Part shown: piece after piece, positions 4,391-62,574 of the stretch | Position numbering within the stretch: position 1 is the first letter of the stretch | Layout: the number at the start of each line of letters is the position of its first letter | Assembly: GCA_951406725.2 (NCBI GenBank) | Contig: OX597838.1 | Coordinates: 31,868,001 to 31,932,000, forward strand | DNA from: Octopus vulgaris | Taxonomy: Eukaryota | Length of the DNA stretch: 64,000 nucleotides | Reading direction: 5' to 3' | The notes under the pieces: model-generated | Database searches by the model: none | Told to the model about the DNA's origin: nothing | Seen by the model: only the letters and a program-made list of their open reading frames with translations | Translations under genes and position numbers: made by a program

Positions 4391-5080
4391 ATTATGTAAA
4401 GTCATTTTTGTTTCTGTAACTTGATCTGTCCTTGCTGATTATGAATTGTTGTGGCATTTATACCAGCCTGCTGCAGTGACCAAATGTTCTTTGTCAATTT
4501 TCAAATGCTGTAGAAAAACATACAAATGAAAAATTGTAAACAGTTTGGTGAGATTTTGTGAATTGAACACACAACACACAAATCTTATTTATTGTCAATT
4601 ATTTATTAACTTACATCACAGCCAGTGACAGTGCTTGGCCTAGTGGTCAGAGTGTTGCACTCATGATCACAAGATCTTGGTTTCAATTCTCTGACTGAGT
4701 GATGCATTGTGTTCTTGAGCAAGATACTTCATTTCACTTTGCTGTGTGATTGTTTTGACTTGTGATGTGTGACACATCATTCCCCTGTAGAGGCAATGTC
4801 GATTTGATGAAAGGAGTTAGCTAATGGACAGTACAAATGTTTGATCACTATAACCAAAATCACCTGTGCAGGTTGCTCGACCAGACGTTGCAGAACCCTT
4901 GTATATTGTCTATGACAGAAGGGTTGACATCATAGCCACACTGAAAATGTTTGCCTGTTTTTGAGTATGTTGTTTCTGTCACTATATATTTGAGATTGTA
5001 CATCTTGTATGTGAGTTTGTGTTGTTGCTGCCAAAGTTACTTCTCGATAACTACTTTAATCCACCTATGTTACCTTTCAG

Positions 5081-23910: not shown

Positions 23911-26238
23911 ATTGTAGTGTCAGTGCTAAGCAGTGATAAGGAATAAATGAACTTTAGTTAAAATATGTTTCTGACATGTTTTAACTTTGAAAGACAAATT
24001 CACTGCTGTTTTCGTGGAGGAAAGAAATTCTTGCTTATACTCTTTACTCTCTTTACTCTTTTACTTGTTTCAGTCATTTGACTGTGGCCATGCTGGAGCA
24101 CCGCCTTCTAGTCGAGTAAATCGACACCATGACTTATTCTTTGTAAGCCTAGTACTTATTCTATCAGTCTCTTTTGCTGAACTGCTAAGTTACGGGACAT
24201 AAACACACCACCATCGGTTGTCAAGCAATGGTGGTGGGACAAACACAGACACAAAAATATATACATACATACATATATATATACATATATACGACGGGCT
24301 TCTTCCAGTTTCTGTCTACCAAATCCACTCACAAGGCTTTGGTCGGCCCGAGGCTGTAGTAGAAGACACTTGCCCAAGGTGCCACGCTTATGGTAAAAGG
24401 CATAAAAGAAAACCAGATCTGCTCAGTGTCTTCGCCTAGCAGACTTCAGATGTGTTTCTGGCTCCTTAGCTCTTCTCAATCGATGATACCGAAGAGAGAC
24501 AACCCTGGCAGGCCCTAAATTTATGTATATATTTTTAAGCTAGGTGTAATTTGAAAGATATTTAGCTGCTGTTTCTAGTTGCTTGACTAACCACATAAAG
24601 ACTTCATTGTTGAGTCAAGCCAAGTTTTTGATGATATGATTACCTTTCTGAGTAAATTTTAATTATTTCCCTTAAACAGTAATTATATTAAAACAAAACA
24701 ATTATCTTACGCTAATTAAATATAATGATCAGTGGTAATAGAAAATGCTTAAGTGACGAAGGGGAATAACTTTTGTCTATTTGGTCACTAATGGCTGCTT
24801 GTAAATAATATTGATTCATATTTTGGACACCAATAATTATTGATATAATCAATATCCACAACGGAGCATCGATTATTTGTCACTTGTAGAAATCAATATT
24901 TTGTACATTGTTGCCAATAAATGTGTATCTTTGCTCTTTTTGTCTATGACATTATAGTTTTGTCTTAGAGTTATTGACCTCTTTACCATTTATACAATTA
25001 TAATTGTCTGTGTGTCTTACAGAGATTGAGCTTTTAACTGTATAAACCAAAATATTGCTTTGTCTTATAGACATTCAGATTTTTACCCCTTTGTTGCATA
25101 TTTTTGTTGTAACACACTGCATTTGTTTCCTTCACTTTTGGAAATAATGAAGACTTTTGTTATATAATTTTGTCCTTATTAAACTGGTGTAAGGCAGTGA
25201 GATGGCGGAAATGTTAGCATGCTGGACAAGATGCTTAGCGCTATCTCATCTCTCTTTACGTTCTGAGTTCAAATTCTGCCAAGGTCGACTTTGCCTTTCA
25301 TCCTTTCGAGGTTGATAAATTAAGTACCTATTTCTTTACTACCCACAAGGGGCTAAACACAGAGAGGACAAACAAGGACAGACAAACGGATTAAGTGGAT
25401 TATATCGACTACAGTGCGTAACTGGTACTTAATTTATCAACCCTGAAAGGATGAAAGGCAAAGTCAACCTCGGCGGAATTTGAACTCAGAACATAACAGC
25501 AGACAAAATACGGCTACGCATTTCGCCTGGCGTGCTAACGTTTCTGCCAGCTCACCACCTTACTGGTGTCGATCTAATTGACTACCCCACCCACCCAAAA
25601 TTTCGGGCCTTGTGTCTAGAGTAGAAAAGAATCGTTAGCATACTGGACAAAATACTTAATGACATTTCAGTCATCTTTACATTCTGAGTTCAAATTCCTA
25701 CAAGGTCGGCTTTGCCTTTCATCTTTTTGGGTTCAATAAAAAAAGTATATGTTGTTCACTGGGGTTGATGTAATTGACAAGACCCTTCCTCCGAAATTTG
25801 AAACCATTATTAACCTGGTGTTTGGAATTTAAATTTGCATGTTATTTTGATGGAAGGTTTTAATCTACATCACTTTTGAACAGAGAGTTTGTGTCACAGA
25901 ACTAGGGGCTGTCTCTGGTAGATACCATGCAGTGAGACTGAACCCCAAACCATATGGTTGGGAAGCAAGCTTCTTACCAAAAGAAATTGGCCTTGGTCAA
26001 ACTTGGCAAAGGATGCACTCTACCAGGTCTAAACATACCCAAAAAACCTGCCATCTATTACAATAGCGACTCTACAACTGCACTGGGAGTTGCTGGCCCA
26101 AACCAACAGACCACAGACCATTACACTGTCTGTTTTCTGTTGTTGATATTGACATGCAACTATCCATACCGTTATGCTGTTAGTCTGGTCTACATATATT
26201 GAGTTTTTAATCATGCATTCCATTATTTTGTGTTGTAG

Positions 26239-27350: not shown

Positions 27351-28439
27351 GCAGCTGATGCAGCAAGGGTGGAGCCAGAGAAAGTGATGACAAAACAATG
27401 ATGATGATGATGATGGGAGTAGCTGTGATGGTGATGGCTGTGGTGTCGGTAGTAGTAGGAATAATAGTGATTGTGATTGTGACAATGGTGATGATGATAA
27501 TTGTGATGATGATAGTGGTGTTGGTGGTGATGGAAGTGATGATCGGGGTGTTGGTGATGAAAGCAATGATGATAATAGTAGTCATGATGACAATGATGGT
27601 GGTTGTAATTATGATGACAACGATGATGATGGTGACTGGTGTAAAAGAGGTGAAGATCACAACATTTAATTTTGTTTGTCTAGAATTTAAGTTCAAATCC
27701 TATATCACATTTGTAGTATTATCATCATCATTGTTCGACCGTGGTCGAGACAATGGAATTTAACATGCTACGCCAGACTTCATGGTCCATCATAGCATTA
27801 TGGAGGTCCTGCTGCTGGATGCCTGTATCCCTGGAGATTACATCAGGGTAGGAGAGTGTGCGCCCTCTGGTATTGCGAATAGATGGCTTCCAGAGGAGAA
27901 GAGTAGAAATTGCCTCGTCTTCAGCTCTACAACAATGTCCAGCAAACTGGACTCTCCTACCTTTAACTATTACTTCTGTACAAGGGGCAGTAGTAGGGAT
28001 GATAATATTAACAATGAGGATGGTAATGATGATCACCTAGACATTTTGTGGATGGTATAATCAATTCTCCTACCCTGATGTAATCTCCAGGGATACAGGC
28101 ATCCAGCAGCAGGACCTCCGTAATGCCTTGATGGACCGTGAAGTCTGGCGTAGCATGGTAAATTCCATTGTCTCGACCACGGTCGAACAATGATGATGAT
28201 GATAATCAATTTAATCTAACCCAGTACATGACTGGTACTTTATTCATCTCCCCAGACTGTCCTTGGTGACTGCATCACTACCATTTTTACCACTTCACCT
28301 CATTTGCCCATCGGCGTTTCCTATATCCTCTTTTCCCAGCTGGCATGGGTTAGATGATTTTTCTGAAGCAGTGTTTTATAGCTGGATGCTCTTCCTGTTG
28401 CCAATCCTTTCATTCAGCTCTTATCACATATAGGGATGT

Positions 28440-29439: not shown

Positions 29440-29808
29440 AGCAATAATAAATCTCTGAACGAGGTATAAACAGTAACTGCACGACCAATGTGAGGTATAT
29501 TTTCCATCTCAATATGGCTAACCACTAAGGTTGGGTGTTATTGTAGCTTGTAGCCCCAAGAGAGCACCATCTCCAGCTGGCTATAGGCACACTTTCTGTG
29601 CCCTAACGGTATTTGCAAAGATCCAGAAACTGCAGTCCGTGTGTATCACTTAGGTTGATGAGGGAAGAATGACCTCCCTTTGCAAATACCATAAGGGCAC
29701 AGAAAGTGTGCCTAAAGCCAGCTGGAGACGATGCTCTCCTGGGGCTATAAGCTACAGTAACACCCACCCTTAGTGGTTAGCCATATTGAGATGGCAAATA
29801 TACCTCAC
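29440..29808. mobile_element. Foldback insertion, probably Penelope-like element (PLE) derived, with a hammerhead 3' half in the loop
   Basis: ~132-bp arms 29489-29620 / 29678-29809; 13-bp TSD AATATGAATTATT; GAAAC-TGCA-GTC at 29626-29637. Confidence 0.75.
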
Positions 29809-30103
29809 AATATGAATTATTGTCATATTTAAATTTCGATGCTATTCATAGCAGATCACAAAAACCGTAGAAATTTCACCATTGATTCACGAAATGGATT
29901 TTTAAACACCTGCCACACCTTCTGATCACACCTGTCACCTGAGGTGATCTCATTCCCAGTCTACTCTCCTGCCCCCTAAATTTGATGTTCCAAGTTTCTG
30001 TTAAAATAAATTTAATTCCTTGGCTATTATCTGTAAAGTTTATAACCAAAATCATTTCTTTATACATTCTCTCTCTTCGTCTCTCTCCATTTCTCTCTTG
30101 TAG

Positions 30104-35408: not shown

Positions 35409-35529
35409 GTAAAGACACACAGCTTTCTCTTTGCTTTAATGCTATAATAATAATAATAATAATTGACGACTGATTGTTCTTCTGTGTGTCTCCTTTTGTC
35501 TCCCTTTGTTTCAGAATAATATTCGTTAA

Positions 35530-35820
35530 TTCTGTTGTGTCTGGGGAGAGTCATTCTCATTTAGTACCTTATTATTTAACACACTCACCGGTAAAATTTC
35601 CACTTATTTCGTCTTTTTATTTTCCTAAAATTTTCCTAAAATTTTCGTTGCGTCTTGCAACCTTTTCAATAGTCTTGAAAGACGAAATAAGTGGAAATTT
35701 TACCGATGAGTGTGTTAAATAATAAGCTACTAAATGAGAATGACTCTCCCCAGACACAACAGAATATGCTTCAACACGCGAACTCATATAAAGAATCTTG
35801 CAAACCAAATCCAAAAACGA
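35530..35820. mobile_element. Foldback insertion (PLE-like); same family at 46089-46352
   Basis: ~87-bp arms 35530-35616 / 35678-35764; TSD AATATT(C/A)GTTAA at 35518-35529 and 35821-35832. Confidence 0.8.
35635..35672 (-). ncRNA. Minimal type I hammerhead-like motif, U3-A8 core variant
   Basis: CTA-TTGAAAA-G-GTTGC-aagac-GCAAC-GAAA-AT-TT-TAG; perfect 5-bp stem II, stem I only 3 bp. Confidence 0.6.
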
Positions 35821-36995: not shown

Positions 36996-37031
<36 letters not shown>

Positions 37032-37225
37032 AAAGGACACTGTACACGTTTTTAAGTAATGATAATAGTTTCATATGTTGAGAAATACCTCAAACATATT
37101 CATCAGGCACAAACCACATAATATAACGAACTAAAAAATTGAATAAGAAAAGAAATGTAAATAGCTGAGAAGGAAGCATATATAAAATGCAAAAGGTTTT
37201 AAAACAGAATATGAAAAAGTGGTTT

Positions 37226-37282
37226 GTGTCTGATGAATATATATATGAGGTGTTTCTCAACATATGAAACTACTAGTAGCAC
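37226..37282 (+). ncRNA. Type I hammerhead ribozyme motif with canonical core; decayed inverted copy at ~37058-37110(-)
   Basis: GTGT-CTGATGA-ATAT...ATAT-GAAAC-tacta-GTA-GCAC. Confidence 0.7.
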
Positions 37283-37371
37283 TTAAAGACATGTATTGTG
37301 AACTTTAAATATTTGTCTCTCACCAGATAGAGTACTTTTTTTGTTGATCTTTCTATCACAGAACAGTACAT

Positions 37372-37424
<53 letters not shown>

Positions 37425-37522
37425 CTAATGTAGGATAACATTTTTTCGAAAAAAATTCTTTTCAAAAAAATTTTATCAATGGTCAGCATATTAAAAAATA
37501 CCTCTAAAGGTTAAAATTATAA

Positions 37523-37867
37523 ACAATTCATAAATAAGGGCAAACAAAAAAAATTTCTAATGCCAAATATGCCGAAAAATTGGACATATTGACCATTAAC
37601 CATATAATTTTTTCACAATATGCACACTACTCGAAAAAAGGTGGACAGAAATTTCTAAAAAATTCCATTATTACCATATCGGACTGATTTCAGGGTTAGC
37701 TTATAACAGCCCTCCCATCGTCAGGTATTTTCTAGAAATTTCTGTCCACCTTTTTTCGAGTAGCATGCGTATTGTGAAAAAATTATATGGTTAATGGACA
37801 ATATGTCCAATTTTTCTGCATATTTGGAATTAGAAATTTTTTTCGTTTGCCCTTATTTATGAATTGT
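37523..37867. mobile_element. Foldback insertion with a hammerhead core in the loop (minus strand, 37682-37724)
   Basis: ~139-bp arms; loop reverse complement reads CTGACGA-tGGGagGGCTgttataAGCTaaCCCt-GAAA-tca-GTC. Confidence 0.75.
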
Positions 37868-38111
37868 ATATATATATATATATATACACATCCACCAATA
37901 TAGCAAGAACAGATGAAATTCCTGCATATATATATATACAGCATCATGGGGCAGATTAAATTGCATAAATATTCTCTATTATATACTTTTGCTGTCCTCA
38001 AGCACAGTCCTCCAACATAGCAGGAGCATCACTCCTACCTTCAACGTTTATGACTAGAATTAAATGAGGACATCAAATTATTAACTGCTAAGCTTTAGAG
38101 CCTAAATTGAT

Positions 38112-45716: not shown

Positions 45717-47757
45717 GTAAGTAATTTCCTTCCCTCTATCTCTTCCTGATAACTTACCTTAAATTTTACCTTAATACTAATTCCACTGCTGACCCTATTC
45801 AAGGTCGTTGCCAGTGCCACCGGACTGGCTCCTGTGCAGGTGGCACTTAAAAAGCACCATTTGAGCATGGCCATTGTCAGTACTGCCTGACTGGCCCTCT
45901 TAAAAGCACCCACTATATTGTTGGAGTGTTTGGTGTTAGGAAGGGCATCCAGCTGTAGAAACTCTGCCAGATCAGATTGGAGTCTGGTGCAGCCATCCAG
46001 TTCACCAGTCCTCAGTCAAATCGTCCAACCCATGCTAGCATGGAAAGCGGACGTTAAACGATGATGATGATGATGATGTAGGGTTGAATTTCGTTTTTGT
46101 ATCTGGTTTGCAAGATTCTTTATGTGAACTCATGTGTTGAAGCAAATTATGTTGTGTCTGGGGAGAGACATATTGTCTTAATGCTTTATTATCTAACACA
46201 CACACACTAGTTCAATTTTTGTTGTTTTTGCAAGCAAAAGCAATGAAAATTTTGGAAGAAAAAATACAAATAATAAATGAGTGGAAATCGAACCAGTGAG
46301 TGTGTTAGATAAGGCATTAAAGCAATATGACCCTCCCCATACACAACATAATAAGCTAAATATCTTTTACAACCAGGCCTTGATGAAGTCCATCAGCTAA
46401 TGTGGTCACTTGCTGTTATTATATTACTTCTATTCGTATGCAATGCTTGCTATCTCTGTAAATAACAGAGAAGACTACACTCATTCGGAATGTCAACCTC
46501 ATTTTTACAGAGAGAAAAAGAGCAAAACATTGTGTTATATTTACGTGTATGCTGTGTCTTGGACATTTGATCTCTGATCATCCACACTGTCACAGATATC
46601 TCTTAATGGAAACACTGTTAATAACACTAGTCTAATAAAAAGTACTCCTAGTTCAAATCCAGTTTGGTACCATGTGCTTATCTAAGGATAAGTCCTTGGT
46701 GGTAATCAAACTGACTGAAAGACAACGAAGATATGTTGGAAAACAGCAAGATGTCCATCACTGAAGATGATGTTTATAGTCTAAAAGTCATAATCTGATT
46801 AACAATTACTCCTCTCAGATAATATTTGCAGTATAGAAGACACACATTAGCCATTCAAAAAATTACAAAGACTATTAACTTCTAAAAAATTCATTGTTTG
46901 GTGTCAAAATTTTCATTGCACCAGGTCGTAATTGGTGCAACAAAAATTTTGGCATCAAATAATAGACTTTTTAGTGAATTGACCAATTTTTGTGTGCATT
47001 TGAACGGCTGATGTGTATCTACCTTGTTGCAATTGTTTTAGTTTCAATGCATGGTCTCAGATCAAATCACTTGCTAGGCAAGTACATCTCTGAAATCTTC
47101 TCAGATGTTTCATCAATAAAGAACAAACATGTCCTCTTAGATATAAACATGGCACCTGTGTCGGCTGCACGTAGATGCACCCCGGTGTCATGCAAATGGC
47201 ACATAAAAGCACCCATTACACTCTCAGAGTGGTTGGCATTAGAAAGGGCATCCAGCCGTAGAAAACCATACCAGATCAGACTGAAGCCTGGCACAGCCTT
47301 CCAGCATGCCAGCCCAGTCAAACCGTCCAACCCATGGATAACAGACATTAACCCTTTCGTTACCGTATTCATTTTGAGATGCTCTGTGTTTCTTTCCATT
47401 AATTGTAAATATAACAAAGAATTTAGTAATATTACTTACGTATCATTCAGCTACTGTTAGGATCATAAATTGTGACTAAGGTTTGGTGGTATATTTTAAT
47501 GAAAAACTTATGAAAACAAGGCATTTATACTACAGAGCCAGAGCCGGTTTTGGCCGGGTTAGTATCAAAAGGGTTAAATGATGATGATGATGCTGACTTG
47601 AATACTAAAGAGAGACATTTCTACCTGGATAGTTTAATGGTGATGCTGGAGCTGTAAAGAGATAGGAATGCCTACCTTCAGCAAACAGCAATAATCCTTC
47701 ATTATGTTTCAGTTTGAATGGTAAGGTGATTAAAAACATTTTTGTTGACCCCCACAG

Positions 47758-53324: not shown

Positions 53325-53715
53325 TTTATTTTTTTATTGTATCTAGTTTCAGCTCACGAGCTGTGGCCATGCTGGGGCACCGCCATTTGGTGTTGCTACA
53401 TGAATTTACTTCACGAATGCTTTTTAGCAATTGCCATTTGGTGCATGAGAGAGTTCGATGCAGCTGCCCTCATCTGCACCTCCTGCCGTGAAGTTGGTTC
53501 ATCTGGGACACCTGACAGGAAGAGATCCAGTTTTATTTTAAAGACATCTGCATCCACCCCATGCAGGTCTCTCAGGTAACTTCGGGAGGATATTGAAGAG
53601 CTGTGGGCCTCTGAAGCCCAGGCTATCACAGTATCTTGTCCTACATCTTGATGGCAAATTTGGAGTCCTTGGCACTCTGCAGTGGCGCCCAGTTCTAGCG
53701 TTTGTGTAACTCTCA
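53325..53715 (-). mobile_element. CR1-like LINE 3' fragment (another family); tail piece at ~34185-34310
   Basis: SLGFRGPQLFNILP..LRDLHGVDADVFKIKLDLFLSGVPDEP. Confidence 0.8.
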
Positions 53716-53799
53716 AAGCTGTAGATTAACTTTGAGAGAGCCAAACACTTGTTGGGAGATGAATGTCTCTCTGTAAATGTTTGAAACCATTAATATAGC

Positions 53800-54063
53800 G
53801 ATGTACTTGCATAGCATGTGATTTGATCTGAGATCGTGTGCTGAAACGAAAACAATTGCAGCATGGAAGGTGTTTATAAGCCATTTAAGAAACACACAAA
53901 AGTCGTTCGATTCACTTCAACATTTAAGTTTAATTTGTCAAAATATTTTCGTCACTTTAAGACCGCGACCTGTTCACTGACAAATTAAACTTAAATGTTG
54001 AAGTGAATCAAACGGCTTTTGTGTGTTTCTTAAATGGCTTACAAACACCTTCCACACTGCAAT
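53800..54063. mobile_element. Foldback insertion (PLE-like) centred on a complete hammerhead
   Basis: 86-bp arms 53855-53940 / 53978-54063; perfect 12-bp TSD CATTAATATAGC at 53788-53799 and 54064-54075. Confidence 0.85.
53934..53984 (-). ncRNA. Minimal type I hammerhead ribozyme, G3-C8 compensatory core variant
   Basis: TTTGTCA-GTGAACA-G-GTCGC-ggtcttaaa-GTGAC-GAAA-ATAT-TT-TGACAAA; stems I and II plus palindromic stem III (AATATT). Confidence 0.75.
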
Positions 54064-54335
54064 CATTAATATAGCAACAGGCAGAAAAAGCAAGATGAGC
54101 AGAACAGGTTTTACGTAAGAGATCCTCTTCAATGAACATACACGTATAAATACAAACACATGCTCGGAATGGTCAGTGGCAAGAGAGGAAGAGGCCGACC
54201 AAGAACCCGCTGGCTTGACACCATCAAGAGTGACACGGGAATGGACATAGCCAATCTGAAAGAAGCGGCCCAGGATAGAACTGACTGGAGGACACTGATC
54301 CAACGAGTAACCGAGAGTCGACTTCGACTGAGCGG

Positions 54336-56845: not shown

Positions 56846-57243
56846 TGTAGCATGGCAGTTTTCAACCATTTTGAAATATGACTATAGCGATTTCTAATAT
56901 CTTCACTGTGTGAAAGGCAAGGCAGAAATGATCTCGTTTAAGGTTACAACAACGTTAAATTAGCCAAAGATTTTTGTAATCTCAAACGAGATCGTTCTTA
57001 ATACTTTTCTCAAACAGTGAAGATAGCAATGAAGAAAACAATATTGCTACAGATATTCATTGCTATCTTCACTGTTTGAGAAAAGTATTAAGAATGATCT
57101 CGTTTGAGATTACAAACATTTTTGGCTAGTTTAACGTTGTTCTAACTTCAAACGAGATCATTTCTGCCTTGCCTTTCACACAGTGAAGATATTAGAAATC
57201 GCTATAGTCATATTTCAAAATGGCTGAAAACTGCCATGCTACA
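56846..57243. repeat. Long near-perfect palindrome (~188-bp arms, 22-nt loop)
   Basis: TGTAGCATGGCAGTTTTC...GATAGCAATGAA / TTCATTGCTATC...CTGCCATGCTACA. Confidence 0.92.
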
Positions 57244-62191: not shown

Positions 62192-62291
62192 TTCAGCAAC
62201 AATTTAGATTCAAATGAATATGGTACTTAATTTAGATGCACCAGAATTCTGTATGGTGTTATCCATAAAAATTTGTGGGGTGATTATAATA

Positions 62292-62439
62292 AAAAAATAA
62301 GCACCAAGAATGACCCCGGTAATTTGGTACAATTGTTTCGCACTACATCATTTTATTAAAAGTTGTAAGTATTACATTAATGATGTAGTGTGAAACAATT
62401 GTACCAAATTACCAGAGTCATTCTTGTTGCTTATTTTTT
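62292..62439. repeat. Foldback with 61-bp arms and a 26-nt loop
   Basis: AAAAAATAAGCACCAAGAATGAC...CTACATCATT / AATGATGTAG...GTCATTCTTGTTGCTTATTTTTT. Confidence 0.9.
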
Positions 62440-62574
62440 GAGTATATATATTTTTGAACCGTCCAACCCATGCTAGCATGGAAAACGGACGCTAAATGAT
62501 GATGATGATGATGATGATATATATATATATATATAAATATCTATGTATGTATATCTGTAATGTTTCTGTTACAG

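What the first reader, a model, noticed from the sequence alone, without database searches (positions are those of the whole stretch)
53800..54075. Complete hammerhead with a G3-C8 swapped catalytic core whose stem I continues as an 86-bp hairpin
Seen (minus strand): TTTGTCA GTGAACA G GTCGC ggtcttaaa GTGAC GAAA ATAT TT TGACAAA. Positions 3 and 8 of the CUGAnGA box are both changed (C3G and G8C), which preserves the 3-8 Watson-Crick pair established as necessary for catalysis. The predicted cut is after UUU, between 53941 and 53940. Stem III is the palindrome AATATT, so it probably needs to dimerise. The ribozyme makes up the whole 37-nt loop of the palindrome, and the insertion has a perfect 12-bp TSD. 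Searches for the literal CUGAnGA core would miss it. Activity is inferred, not shown.
Basis: partly seen in the sequence, partly recalled or inferred. Interest (0 to 1): 0.8.

Follow-up and report, generated by a model that had tools for sequence, protein, structure and literature searches.

The report
Swapped-core hammerhead in Penelope-like retrotransposon
This is a short leftover copy of a jumping gene whose thousands of copies nearly all carry a hammerhead-shaped RNA motif with two paired core letters swapped (G-C instead of C-G); it is likely a weakly self-cutting ribozyme that standard searches would miss, and the long hairpin around it is likely a by-product of insertion, not part of the ribozyme.

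Summary
Observation confirmed; interpretation partly. The 264-nt insert is a terminal-repeat (pLTR) fragment of a Neptune-like Penelope-like retrotransposon (RT + GIY-YIG). G3-C8 is the family state: 6,024 core matches, 95 of 100 listed G3-C8, none C3-G8. The sister family (54% amino-acid identity) has C3-G8 at the same place; relatives elsewhere have C3-G8 or U3-A8, always paired. The extra core nucleotide and palindromic stem III are standard for these hammerheads. The 86-bp hairpin is not ribozyme structure: native stem I is about 7 bp, and only 21 exact copies of this junction exist. It is an inverted truncated copy joined at stem I. Of 100 copies, 53 begin about 60 nt above the cut and 0 at it, so uncut RNA likely is the template; a G3-G8 sub-lineage also spread. 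Cleavage is untested. I found no natural G3-C8 in the papers I could read; this scan noted it before on other DNA (protist elements, phages; unchecked). New variant of a known kind.

The parts
54064..54075 (.). target-site duplication, copy at the element's 5' side
   Evidence: exact 12-nt match to 53788-53799
53978..54063 (+). inverted, truncated second copy of the pLTR, from the predicted cut (+0) to the 'arm end' (+85); its inner 7 nt double as the 5' strand of stem I on the minus strand
   Evidence: 81/86 complementary; native upstream sequence differs; 40 of 100 sampled pieces end at +84..+94
53978..53984 (-). stem I, 5' strand (7 nt); also the microhomology of the inversion junction
53971..53977 (-). 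core positions 3-9, G3 U4 G5 A6 A7 C8 A9 (3-8 pair swapped)
   Evidence: 95 of 100 listed family copies; covariation across relatives
53970..53970 (-). extra nucleotide between 9 and 10.1
   Evidence: invariant G in the 13 aligned motifs; described for PLE hammerheads in PMC4209133
53951..53969 (-). stem II (5 bp, G10.1-C11.1, one G-U from CpG decay) and 9-nt loop II
   Evidence: predicted pairing 0.99; loop II is where subfamilies differ
53941..53950 (-). G12 A13 A14, palindromic stem III A15.1..U16.1 (53947-53942), U17 (53941); predicted cut after 53941
   Evidence: sequence; palindrome kept at other lengths in relatives
53855..53940 (-). stem I 3' strand (53940-53934) and the rest of the pLTR arm
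   Evidence: 11,242 exact matches to a 19-mer inside it
53800..53854 (-). 'tail' between the two preferred 3' ends; holds the first four codons of the element's ORF (ATG at 53812); 7 nt shorter than most copies
   Evidence: runs into the ORF in long copies; 56 of 100 pieces end at +139..+152
53788..53799 (.). target-site duplication, copy at the element's 3' side

Best explanation
The insert is a short terminal-repeat copy of a Penelope-like retrotransposon whose hammerhead motif has a family-wide G3-C8 core that is likely a weak, dimer- or protein-assisted self-cutter, and the 86-bp hairpin likely arose at insertion when an inverted partial copy was joined at stem I. Shown: family membership, order pLTR-ORF-3'UTR-pLTR, fixed G3-C8, paired 3-8 exchange across relatives, two preferred 3' ends, one preferred 5' end about 60 nt above the cut, rarity of this junction. 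Inferred: transcription starts about 60 nt above the cut; the RT-endonuclease nicks AT-rich DNA and starts cDNA inside the RNA at the tail end (+149) or arm end (+86-91); cDNA runs through the uncut hammerhead to the RNA 5' end, giving thousands of ~200-nt solo pLTRs; here one cDNA stopped in stem I and was completed by fold-back or by pairing with a second cDNA through the 7-nt stem I complementarity. The C3-G8 to G3-C8 change likely happened once in this lineage and was kept because the pair matters in source elements, where tandem or protein-bound RNAs would pair through the stem III palindrome and cut slowly or late. This window copy itself is probably inert: it lacks the start site, and its long hairpin would hinder the strand exchange a dimer needs.
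For: RT motifs and GIY-YIG (PF01541, E 1.6e-05) in an open frame of about 1,000 aa about 1.1 kb upstream on the same strand; the tail runs into the ORF start. G3-C8 in 95 of 100 listed of 6,024 and 27 of 37 in an older related family, 0 C3-G8 in both. Sister family C3-G8 at the homologous place; 6 metagenome relatives carry the motif 98-398 nt behind the ORF, 4 C3-G8 and 2 U3-A8, from a scan that did not ask for 3-8 pairing; 13 of 13 aligned motifs paired, CG 5, GC 4, UA 4. Quick tree: G3-C8 family sister to the C3-G8 family, SH-aLRT 99. Among 48 copies, 0 of 42 core/stem columns carry a variant at 15% or more, against 8 of 22 spacer/loop II columns. 3' ends 40 and 56 of 100 at two sites, as in PMC11167929. 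5' ends 53 of 100 at -64..-52; base before that start G 18, A 1 of 35 non-native junctions, suggestive of a copied cap. Engineered C3G/G8C partly restores cleavage in a PLE hammerhead that needs its protein (PMC11167929).
Against: No cleavage data. 0 of 100 pieces begin within 2 nt of the cut. 324 of 6,024 have G3 with an unpaired 8; of 100 listed 42 G, 41 T, 17 A, which points to a G3-G8 sub-lineage that was copied without the pair. Conservation could reflect an internal promoter just below the start (Penelope has one: PMC2377424); the contrast with the downstream arm alone is not significant (p about 0.15), and columns are not independent events. Predicted dimer and two monomers are nearly equal in energy (-22.8 vs -22.2 kcal/mol). 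10 related metagenome loci with 109 nt or more behind the ORF gave no motif. Some of the extra Gs can be templated by the inverted arm. U17 is a poor cleavage triplet in minimal hammerheads (recalled). The careful tree did not finish.
Confidence: 0.68

Rival explanations
1. The motif is a hammerhead descendant that no longer cuts; its sequence is kept as an internal promoter or as the RNA fold that the RT binds.
For: No copy ends at the cut; a G3-G8 sub-lineage spread; the sister family has C at position 9; the core lies 24-45 nt below the likely start, where downstream promoter elements sit; hammerhead mutants do not affect insertion in vitro (PMC11167929).
Against: A promoter or binding site gives no reason for 3 and 8 to change together into three different Watson-Crick pairs, nor for stem III to stay palindromic at 4 and 6 nt. 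G3-C8 still holds in about 95% of copies.
Confidence: 0.24
2. One reading: the 264-nt palindrome is itself a mobile unit (retrozyme- or MITE-like) whose long stem I makes a complete, stable ribozyme.
For: At least 40 similar palindromes with the same outer ends and 9-15 nt duplications; strong predicted hairpin (-144 kcal/mol).
Against: Inner junctions differ from copy to copy; 21 exact stem-I junctions against about 6,000 cores; outer ends are the family's two general 3' ends; the same layout occurs with 2-4 kb of ORF between the arms; stem III stays open in the fold.
Confidence: 0.05
3. Sub-question, origin of the inversion: two cDNAs primed at two nicks on two RNAs (rather than fold-back of one cDNA).
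For: Both outer ends fall on the two preferred start sites; the anole protein nicks and extends both strands and is predicted to be a dimer; some pairs have arms from different subfamilies, e.g. L032, L137; the window's arms differ at a non-CpG family polymorphism.
Against: Most pairs agree at diagnostic sites (discordant 1 of 46, 0 of 48, 5 of 27, against 18, 12, 18 expected at random) and share private changes (L006, L007, L009), as fold-back, same-source RNAs or gene conversion would give.
Confidence: 0.5

Closest known systems
Minimal and near-minimal type I hammerheads in pLTRs of metazoan Penelope-like elements (Cervera and de la Pena 2014, PMC4209133)
   Same: Place in the pLTR, extra nucleotide between 9 and 10.1, G10.1-C11.1, short palindromic stem III, most copies solitary or in opposite-strand pairs.
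   Different: 3-8 pair is G3-C8; that paper reports C3-G8 and a U3-A8 variant in Schistosoma. Stem I is about 7 bp rather than 4-5.
Natural U3-A8 hammerheads (Perreault et al. 2011, PMC3088659; PMC4209133)
   Same: Compensatory exchange of the 3-8 pair in nature.
   Different: Needs two transversions rather than two transitions; fixed in about 6,000 copies of one animal genome.
Anole Poseidon PLE and its engineered C3G/G8C hammerhead (Frangieh et al. 2024, PMC11167929)
   Same: Two 3' ends bounding a tail that overlaps the ORF start, AT-rich targets, uncut RNA as likely template, same double swap.
   Different: There the swap is a lab mutant; here it is natural. Tail about 60 nt rather than 30-40; ORF starts about 130 nt below the cut, not inside the ribozyme.
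Neptune-clade PLEs (Craig et al. 2021, PMC8557442)
   Same: RT then CX2-5CxxC linker then C-terminal GIY-YIG; inverted 5'-truncated copies; tail at one end; frequent (TA)n flanks.
   Different: Clade not tested against reference Neptune sequences.
Non-LTR retrozymes (PMC7229834; bioRxiv 10.64898/2026.07.22.740005)
   Same: Short non-coding hammerhead-bearing units related to pLTRs.
   Different: Window copy is a single inverted unit, not a tandem array; no circular RNA evidence.

Membership tests
Type I hammerhead ribozyme | Three-way junction: stem I closing, stem II, stem III around the core | tested here: met
   Stems I and II predicted at 0.94-1.0; stem II covaries in relatives (partly by construction of the scan); stem III only as palindrome.
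Type I hammerhead ribozyme | U4 G5 A6, A9, G12 A13 A14, A15.1-U16.1, H17 | tested here: met
   All present; invariant at subfamily level.
Type I hammerhead ribozyme | Literal C3 and G8 | tested here: not met
   G3 and C8 in 95 of 100.
Type I hammerhead ribozyme | Watson-Crick pair between 3 and 8 | tested here: met
   G-C here; 13 of 13 paired across relatives.
Type I hammerhead ribozyme | Match to an Rfam hammerhead model | tested here: not met
   None in the window at E<=1; none among the 150 listed of 253 matches for L227 and the C3-G8 sister L280, so the models look insensitive to this class.
Type I hammerhead ribozyme | Self-cleavage after H17 | not testable with these tools
   Only contigs were available; genomic copy ends show no peak at the cut.
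PLE pLTR hammerhead | In the terminal repeat, same strand as the ORF, before and after it | tested here: met
   L227 has it at 4742 and 9003 around the ORF.
PLE pLTR hammerhead | Extra nucleotide 9/10.1 and palindromic stem III | tested here: met
   feature list from PMC4209133.
PLE pLTR hammerhead | Cleaves as a dimer | tested here: inconclusive
   Only folding energies: dimer about equal to two monomers.
Penelope-like element (EN+) | Single ORF, RT plus GIY-YIG | tested here: met
   GIY-YIG above cut-off; RT by motifs, BLASTP to a Pfam RVT_1 protein E 2e-09 and RVT_1 in 5 of 28 homologs; no direct RVT_1 hit.
Penelope-like element (EN+) | pLTRs, inverted truncated copies, tail at one end | tested here: met
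Neptune clade | CX2-5CxxC linker between RT and EN | tested here: met
   CQSNCAVC in the frame; feature from PMC8557442.
Neptune clade | Groups with reference Neptune RTs | not tested
   No named reference sequences at hand.
Non-LTR retrozyme / MITE | Self-contained unit with fixed internal structure, tandem arrays or true terminal inverted repeats | tested here: not met
   Junctions vary; 21 exact copies.

The most novel reading that the evidence does not exclude
G3-C8 is a working third natural solution for the hammerhead core, fixed in a successful animal retrotransposon, and pattern searches keyed to CUGAnGA have missed whole families, possibly including PLE groups now called hammerhead-less. 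The copy ends also record a 'strong-stop'-like step: reverse transcription starts inside the capped, uncut mRNA and runs to its 5' end, so the ribozyme acts at another stage (for example trimming tandem read-through RNA).
Probability: 0.4. Interest if true: 0.7.

Novelty: new variant of a known kind. Interest (0 to 1): 0.5.

Why it matters
It gives natural, large-sample support for the rule, so far shown for G-C only with lab mutants in what I could read, that the 3-8 pair matters and not its letters: C-G, U-A and G-C all occur in one retroelement clade. It shows that about 6,000 motifs in one genome escape the usual descriptor (Craig et al. used ^cuganga). And two sister families in one host, one C3-G8 with young full-length frames and one G3-C8, make the open question of what PLE hammerheads do directly testable side by side. 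The hairpin itself is ordinary PLE insertion structure.

Tried and rejected
Rfam: no hammerhead hit. PDB sequence search of the ORF: 0. Sequencing runs: no RNA holder on record; all Logan contigs; laying 4 of 23 runs showed no ends and no GT..AG joint among the listed joints, 98 letter differences were not shown, so it says nothing on expression or cleavage; loose-end consensus in two runs of other organism labels (X16, X18) reads the same G3-C8 core. Splice-acceptor reading of the -60 site: sequence fits, but copies starting there share no upstream exon, so a start site is preferred; not excluded. Empty-site test of the duplication: the left flank is a repeat only up to about 53719, so no paralogous empty site. 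Cut-site 5' ends as a sign of cleavage in vivo: none. Dimer energetics: uninformative. Long hairpin as family feature: rejected. Alternative core register: not needed once relatives aligned. Literature: searches found no natural G3-C8; Lunse 2017, Hammann 2012, Przybilski and Hammann 2007 and Martick and Scott 2006 were not held, and supplement file 1 of PMC4209133 could not be searched; any of these could hold a natural G3-C8 case.

Full report
Observation. G3 is 53977, C8 53972, an extra G at 53970, stem III palindrome 53947-53942, predicted cut 53941/53940. The window lies in a 2.8-Gb animal genome, G000; a close protein relative carries the source label Octopus vulgaris and is encoded in G000, so the host is most likely an octopus.

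It is a repeat family. The 264 nt found 80 matches at 40 scored places of 1,449 candidates. In 30 fetched loci the outer ends agree but the inner junction varies, and several show a different sequence above stem I. That native upstream sequence plus core has 921 exact matches. [quoted passage not shown] RT support is indirect: no direct RVT_1 hit, but E 2e-09 to a protein that has one and 5 of 28 homologs. In the longest copies the same repeat stands before the ORF and its last 60 nt run into the start codon. This is the pLTR-ORF-pLTR plan of Penelope-like elements with inverted truncated copies and a tail (PMC8557442, passages). The window holds only the pLTR piece.

G3-C8 is the family state. 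With positions 3 and 8 left free there are 6,024 matches, control 0; of the first 100 listed 95 are G3-C8, 5 single changes, none C3-G8. In 48 distinct copies picked by an anchor outside the ribozyme (49 kept of 100, those with the native upstream part), variants at 15% or more fall in 8 of 22 spacer and loop II columns, 5 of about 60 arm columns and 0 of 42 core and stem columns (p 7e-5 against spacer/loop, about 0.15 against the arm; columns are not independent events). An older related family has GUGACCA, a 4-nt stem III palindrome and often a changed but paired stem I end (that pattern fixed G3 and C8); with 3 and 8 free it gives 27 of 37 G3-C8 and no C3-G8.

The pair covaries. The sister PLE family in G000 (54% identity) has at the same place a motif with C3-G8, the extra G, a compensated stem II and C at position 9. 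Of 43 metagenome loci of related elements scanned (of 76 fetched), 6 have the motif, all 98-398 nt behind the ORF on its strand: 4 C3-G8, 2 U3-A8; the scan did not require 3-8 pairing, and shuffles gave 0-1 hits. Ten loci with room behind the ORF gave none. In a 13-row alignment the pair is CG 5, GC 4, UA 4, never unpaired (rows are related, two were picked with G3-C8 fixed, stem II pairing was required by the scan). A quick tree joins the G3-C8 family to the C3-G8 sister (SH-aLRT 99) inside C3-G8/U3-A8 relatives, so G3-C8 is likely derived; the careful search did not finish and the root is a midpoint.

The hairpin is an insertion product. Native stem I is about 7 bp. The exact junction of the window occurs 21 times. 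In 100 pieces taken in genome order, 3' ends fall at +84..+94 (40) or +139..+152 (56) from the cut; 5' ends at -64..-52 (53), further up (6), -51..-38 (11), -37..-3 (17), +3..+41 (13) and -2..+2 (0). The sample counts both arms of a pair and includes about seven replicas of one insertion. The two 3' ends match the two internal RT starts that bound the tail in the anole element, where uncut RNA is the main template and cleavage needs the protein (PMC11167929, main text read). The -60 peak with a frequent preceding G (18 G, 1 A, 12 C, 4 T of 35) suggests a capped start; some Gs may come from the inverted arm. The window's direct piece spans -44 to +140 and its inverted piece 0 to +85, sharing the 7 nt of stem I. 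That the inverted piece starts at the cut is therefore no evidence of cleavage. Arms of a pair mostly agree at diagnostic sites, with some mixed pairs (83 pairs, some overlapping), so fold-back and twin priming both remain.

Does it cut? Untested. For: complete core, conserved pair, conserved stems, partial rescue by the same double change in a PLE hammerhead. PLE hammerheads cut weakly and as dimers (PMC4209133, results and discussion read; PMC6765202, passages). Against: no ends at the cut; 324 of 6,024 have G3 with an unpaired 8, and G (42 of 100 listed) is as common as the transition T (41) and well above A (17), which suggests a sub-lineage copied without the pair; promoter constraint is possible (PMC2377424, passages); energies do not favour the dimer. 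I put some cleavage in source elements at about 0.68-0.7, and cleavage of this copy in the cell far lower.

Novelty. Natural U3-A8 is in print (PMC3088659, two passages; PMC4209133). G3-C8 appears only as an engineered form in what I read. Searches found no natural case; four key papers were not held and one supplement was not searchable. I also read parts 1-2 of 5 of bioRxiv 10.64898/2026.07.22.740005, passages of PMC7229834 and reference-list passages of PMC10085705. Earlier notes of this scan report G3-C8 in protist PLEs and phages (unchecked); none for this genome. Verdict: new variant of a known kind, interest 0.5.

Noticed in passing
window 35529-35765 (core at 35669, minus strand); relative at L288:2730: A second long palindrome holds a hammerhead motif with a U3-A8 core, extra G, 5-bp stem II and 4-nt stem III palindrome; probably another PLE family.
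   Followed up: partly
L280-L289 (e.g. L280:1637 and 6225): Sister PLE family: copies 99% identical, open frames of about 1,310 aa, partial tandem arrays, hammerhead with C3-G8 but C at position 9.
   Followed up: partly
L137:37-1301 as oriented: Eight short hammerhead-bearing pLTR units in tandem, 166-192 nt apart and separated by (TA)n; retrozyme-like and a natural setting for dimers.
   Followed up: no
L105:3313, L106:3518, L126, L137, L186 and one search list: Recurrent unpaired G3-G8 cores, about 2% of copies by the listed share; likely a sub-lineage.
   Followed up: partly
L032-L060, L144-L225 (about 60 nt above the cut): Sharp 5' end of short copies, often with an extra G; the site reads both as an initiator-like start and as a branch point/pyrimidine tract/AG acceptor.
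   Followed up: partly
L161, L165, L205, L206, L209, L210, L215: One inverted insertion with the same junction and flanks recurs at seven places, so it was carried by a larger repeat.
   Followed up: no
window 25189-25774, 27717-28204, 29489-29809, 37028-37310, 37518-37872, 46141-46357, 56846-57243, 62285-62446: Eight more regions with long inverted repeats; none gave a hammerhead in the relaxed scan.
   Followed up: no
window 53620-53719: The left flank is part of another high-copy repeat.
   Followed up: partly
L062:1427-3868, L065:4694-7501, L063:5737-6456, L103:691-2370: Two other RT plus GIY-YIG-like frames, a Tc1/mariner-like transposase frame and a C2H2 zinc-finger array near fetched copies; the last three named by eye from recall.
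   Followed up: no
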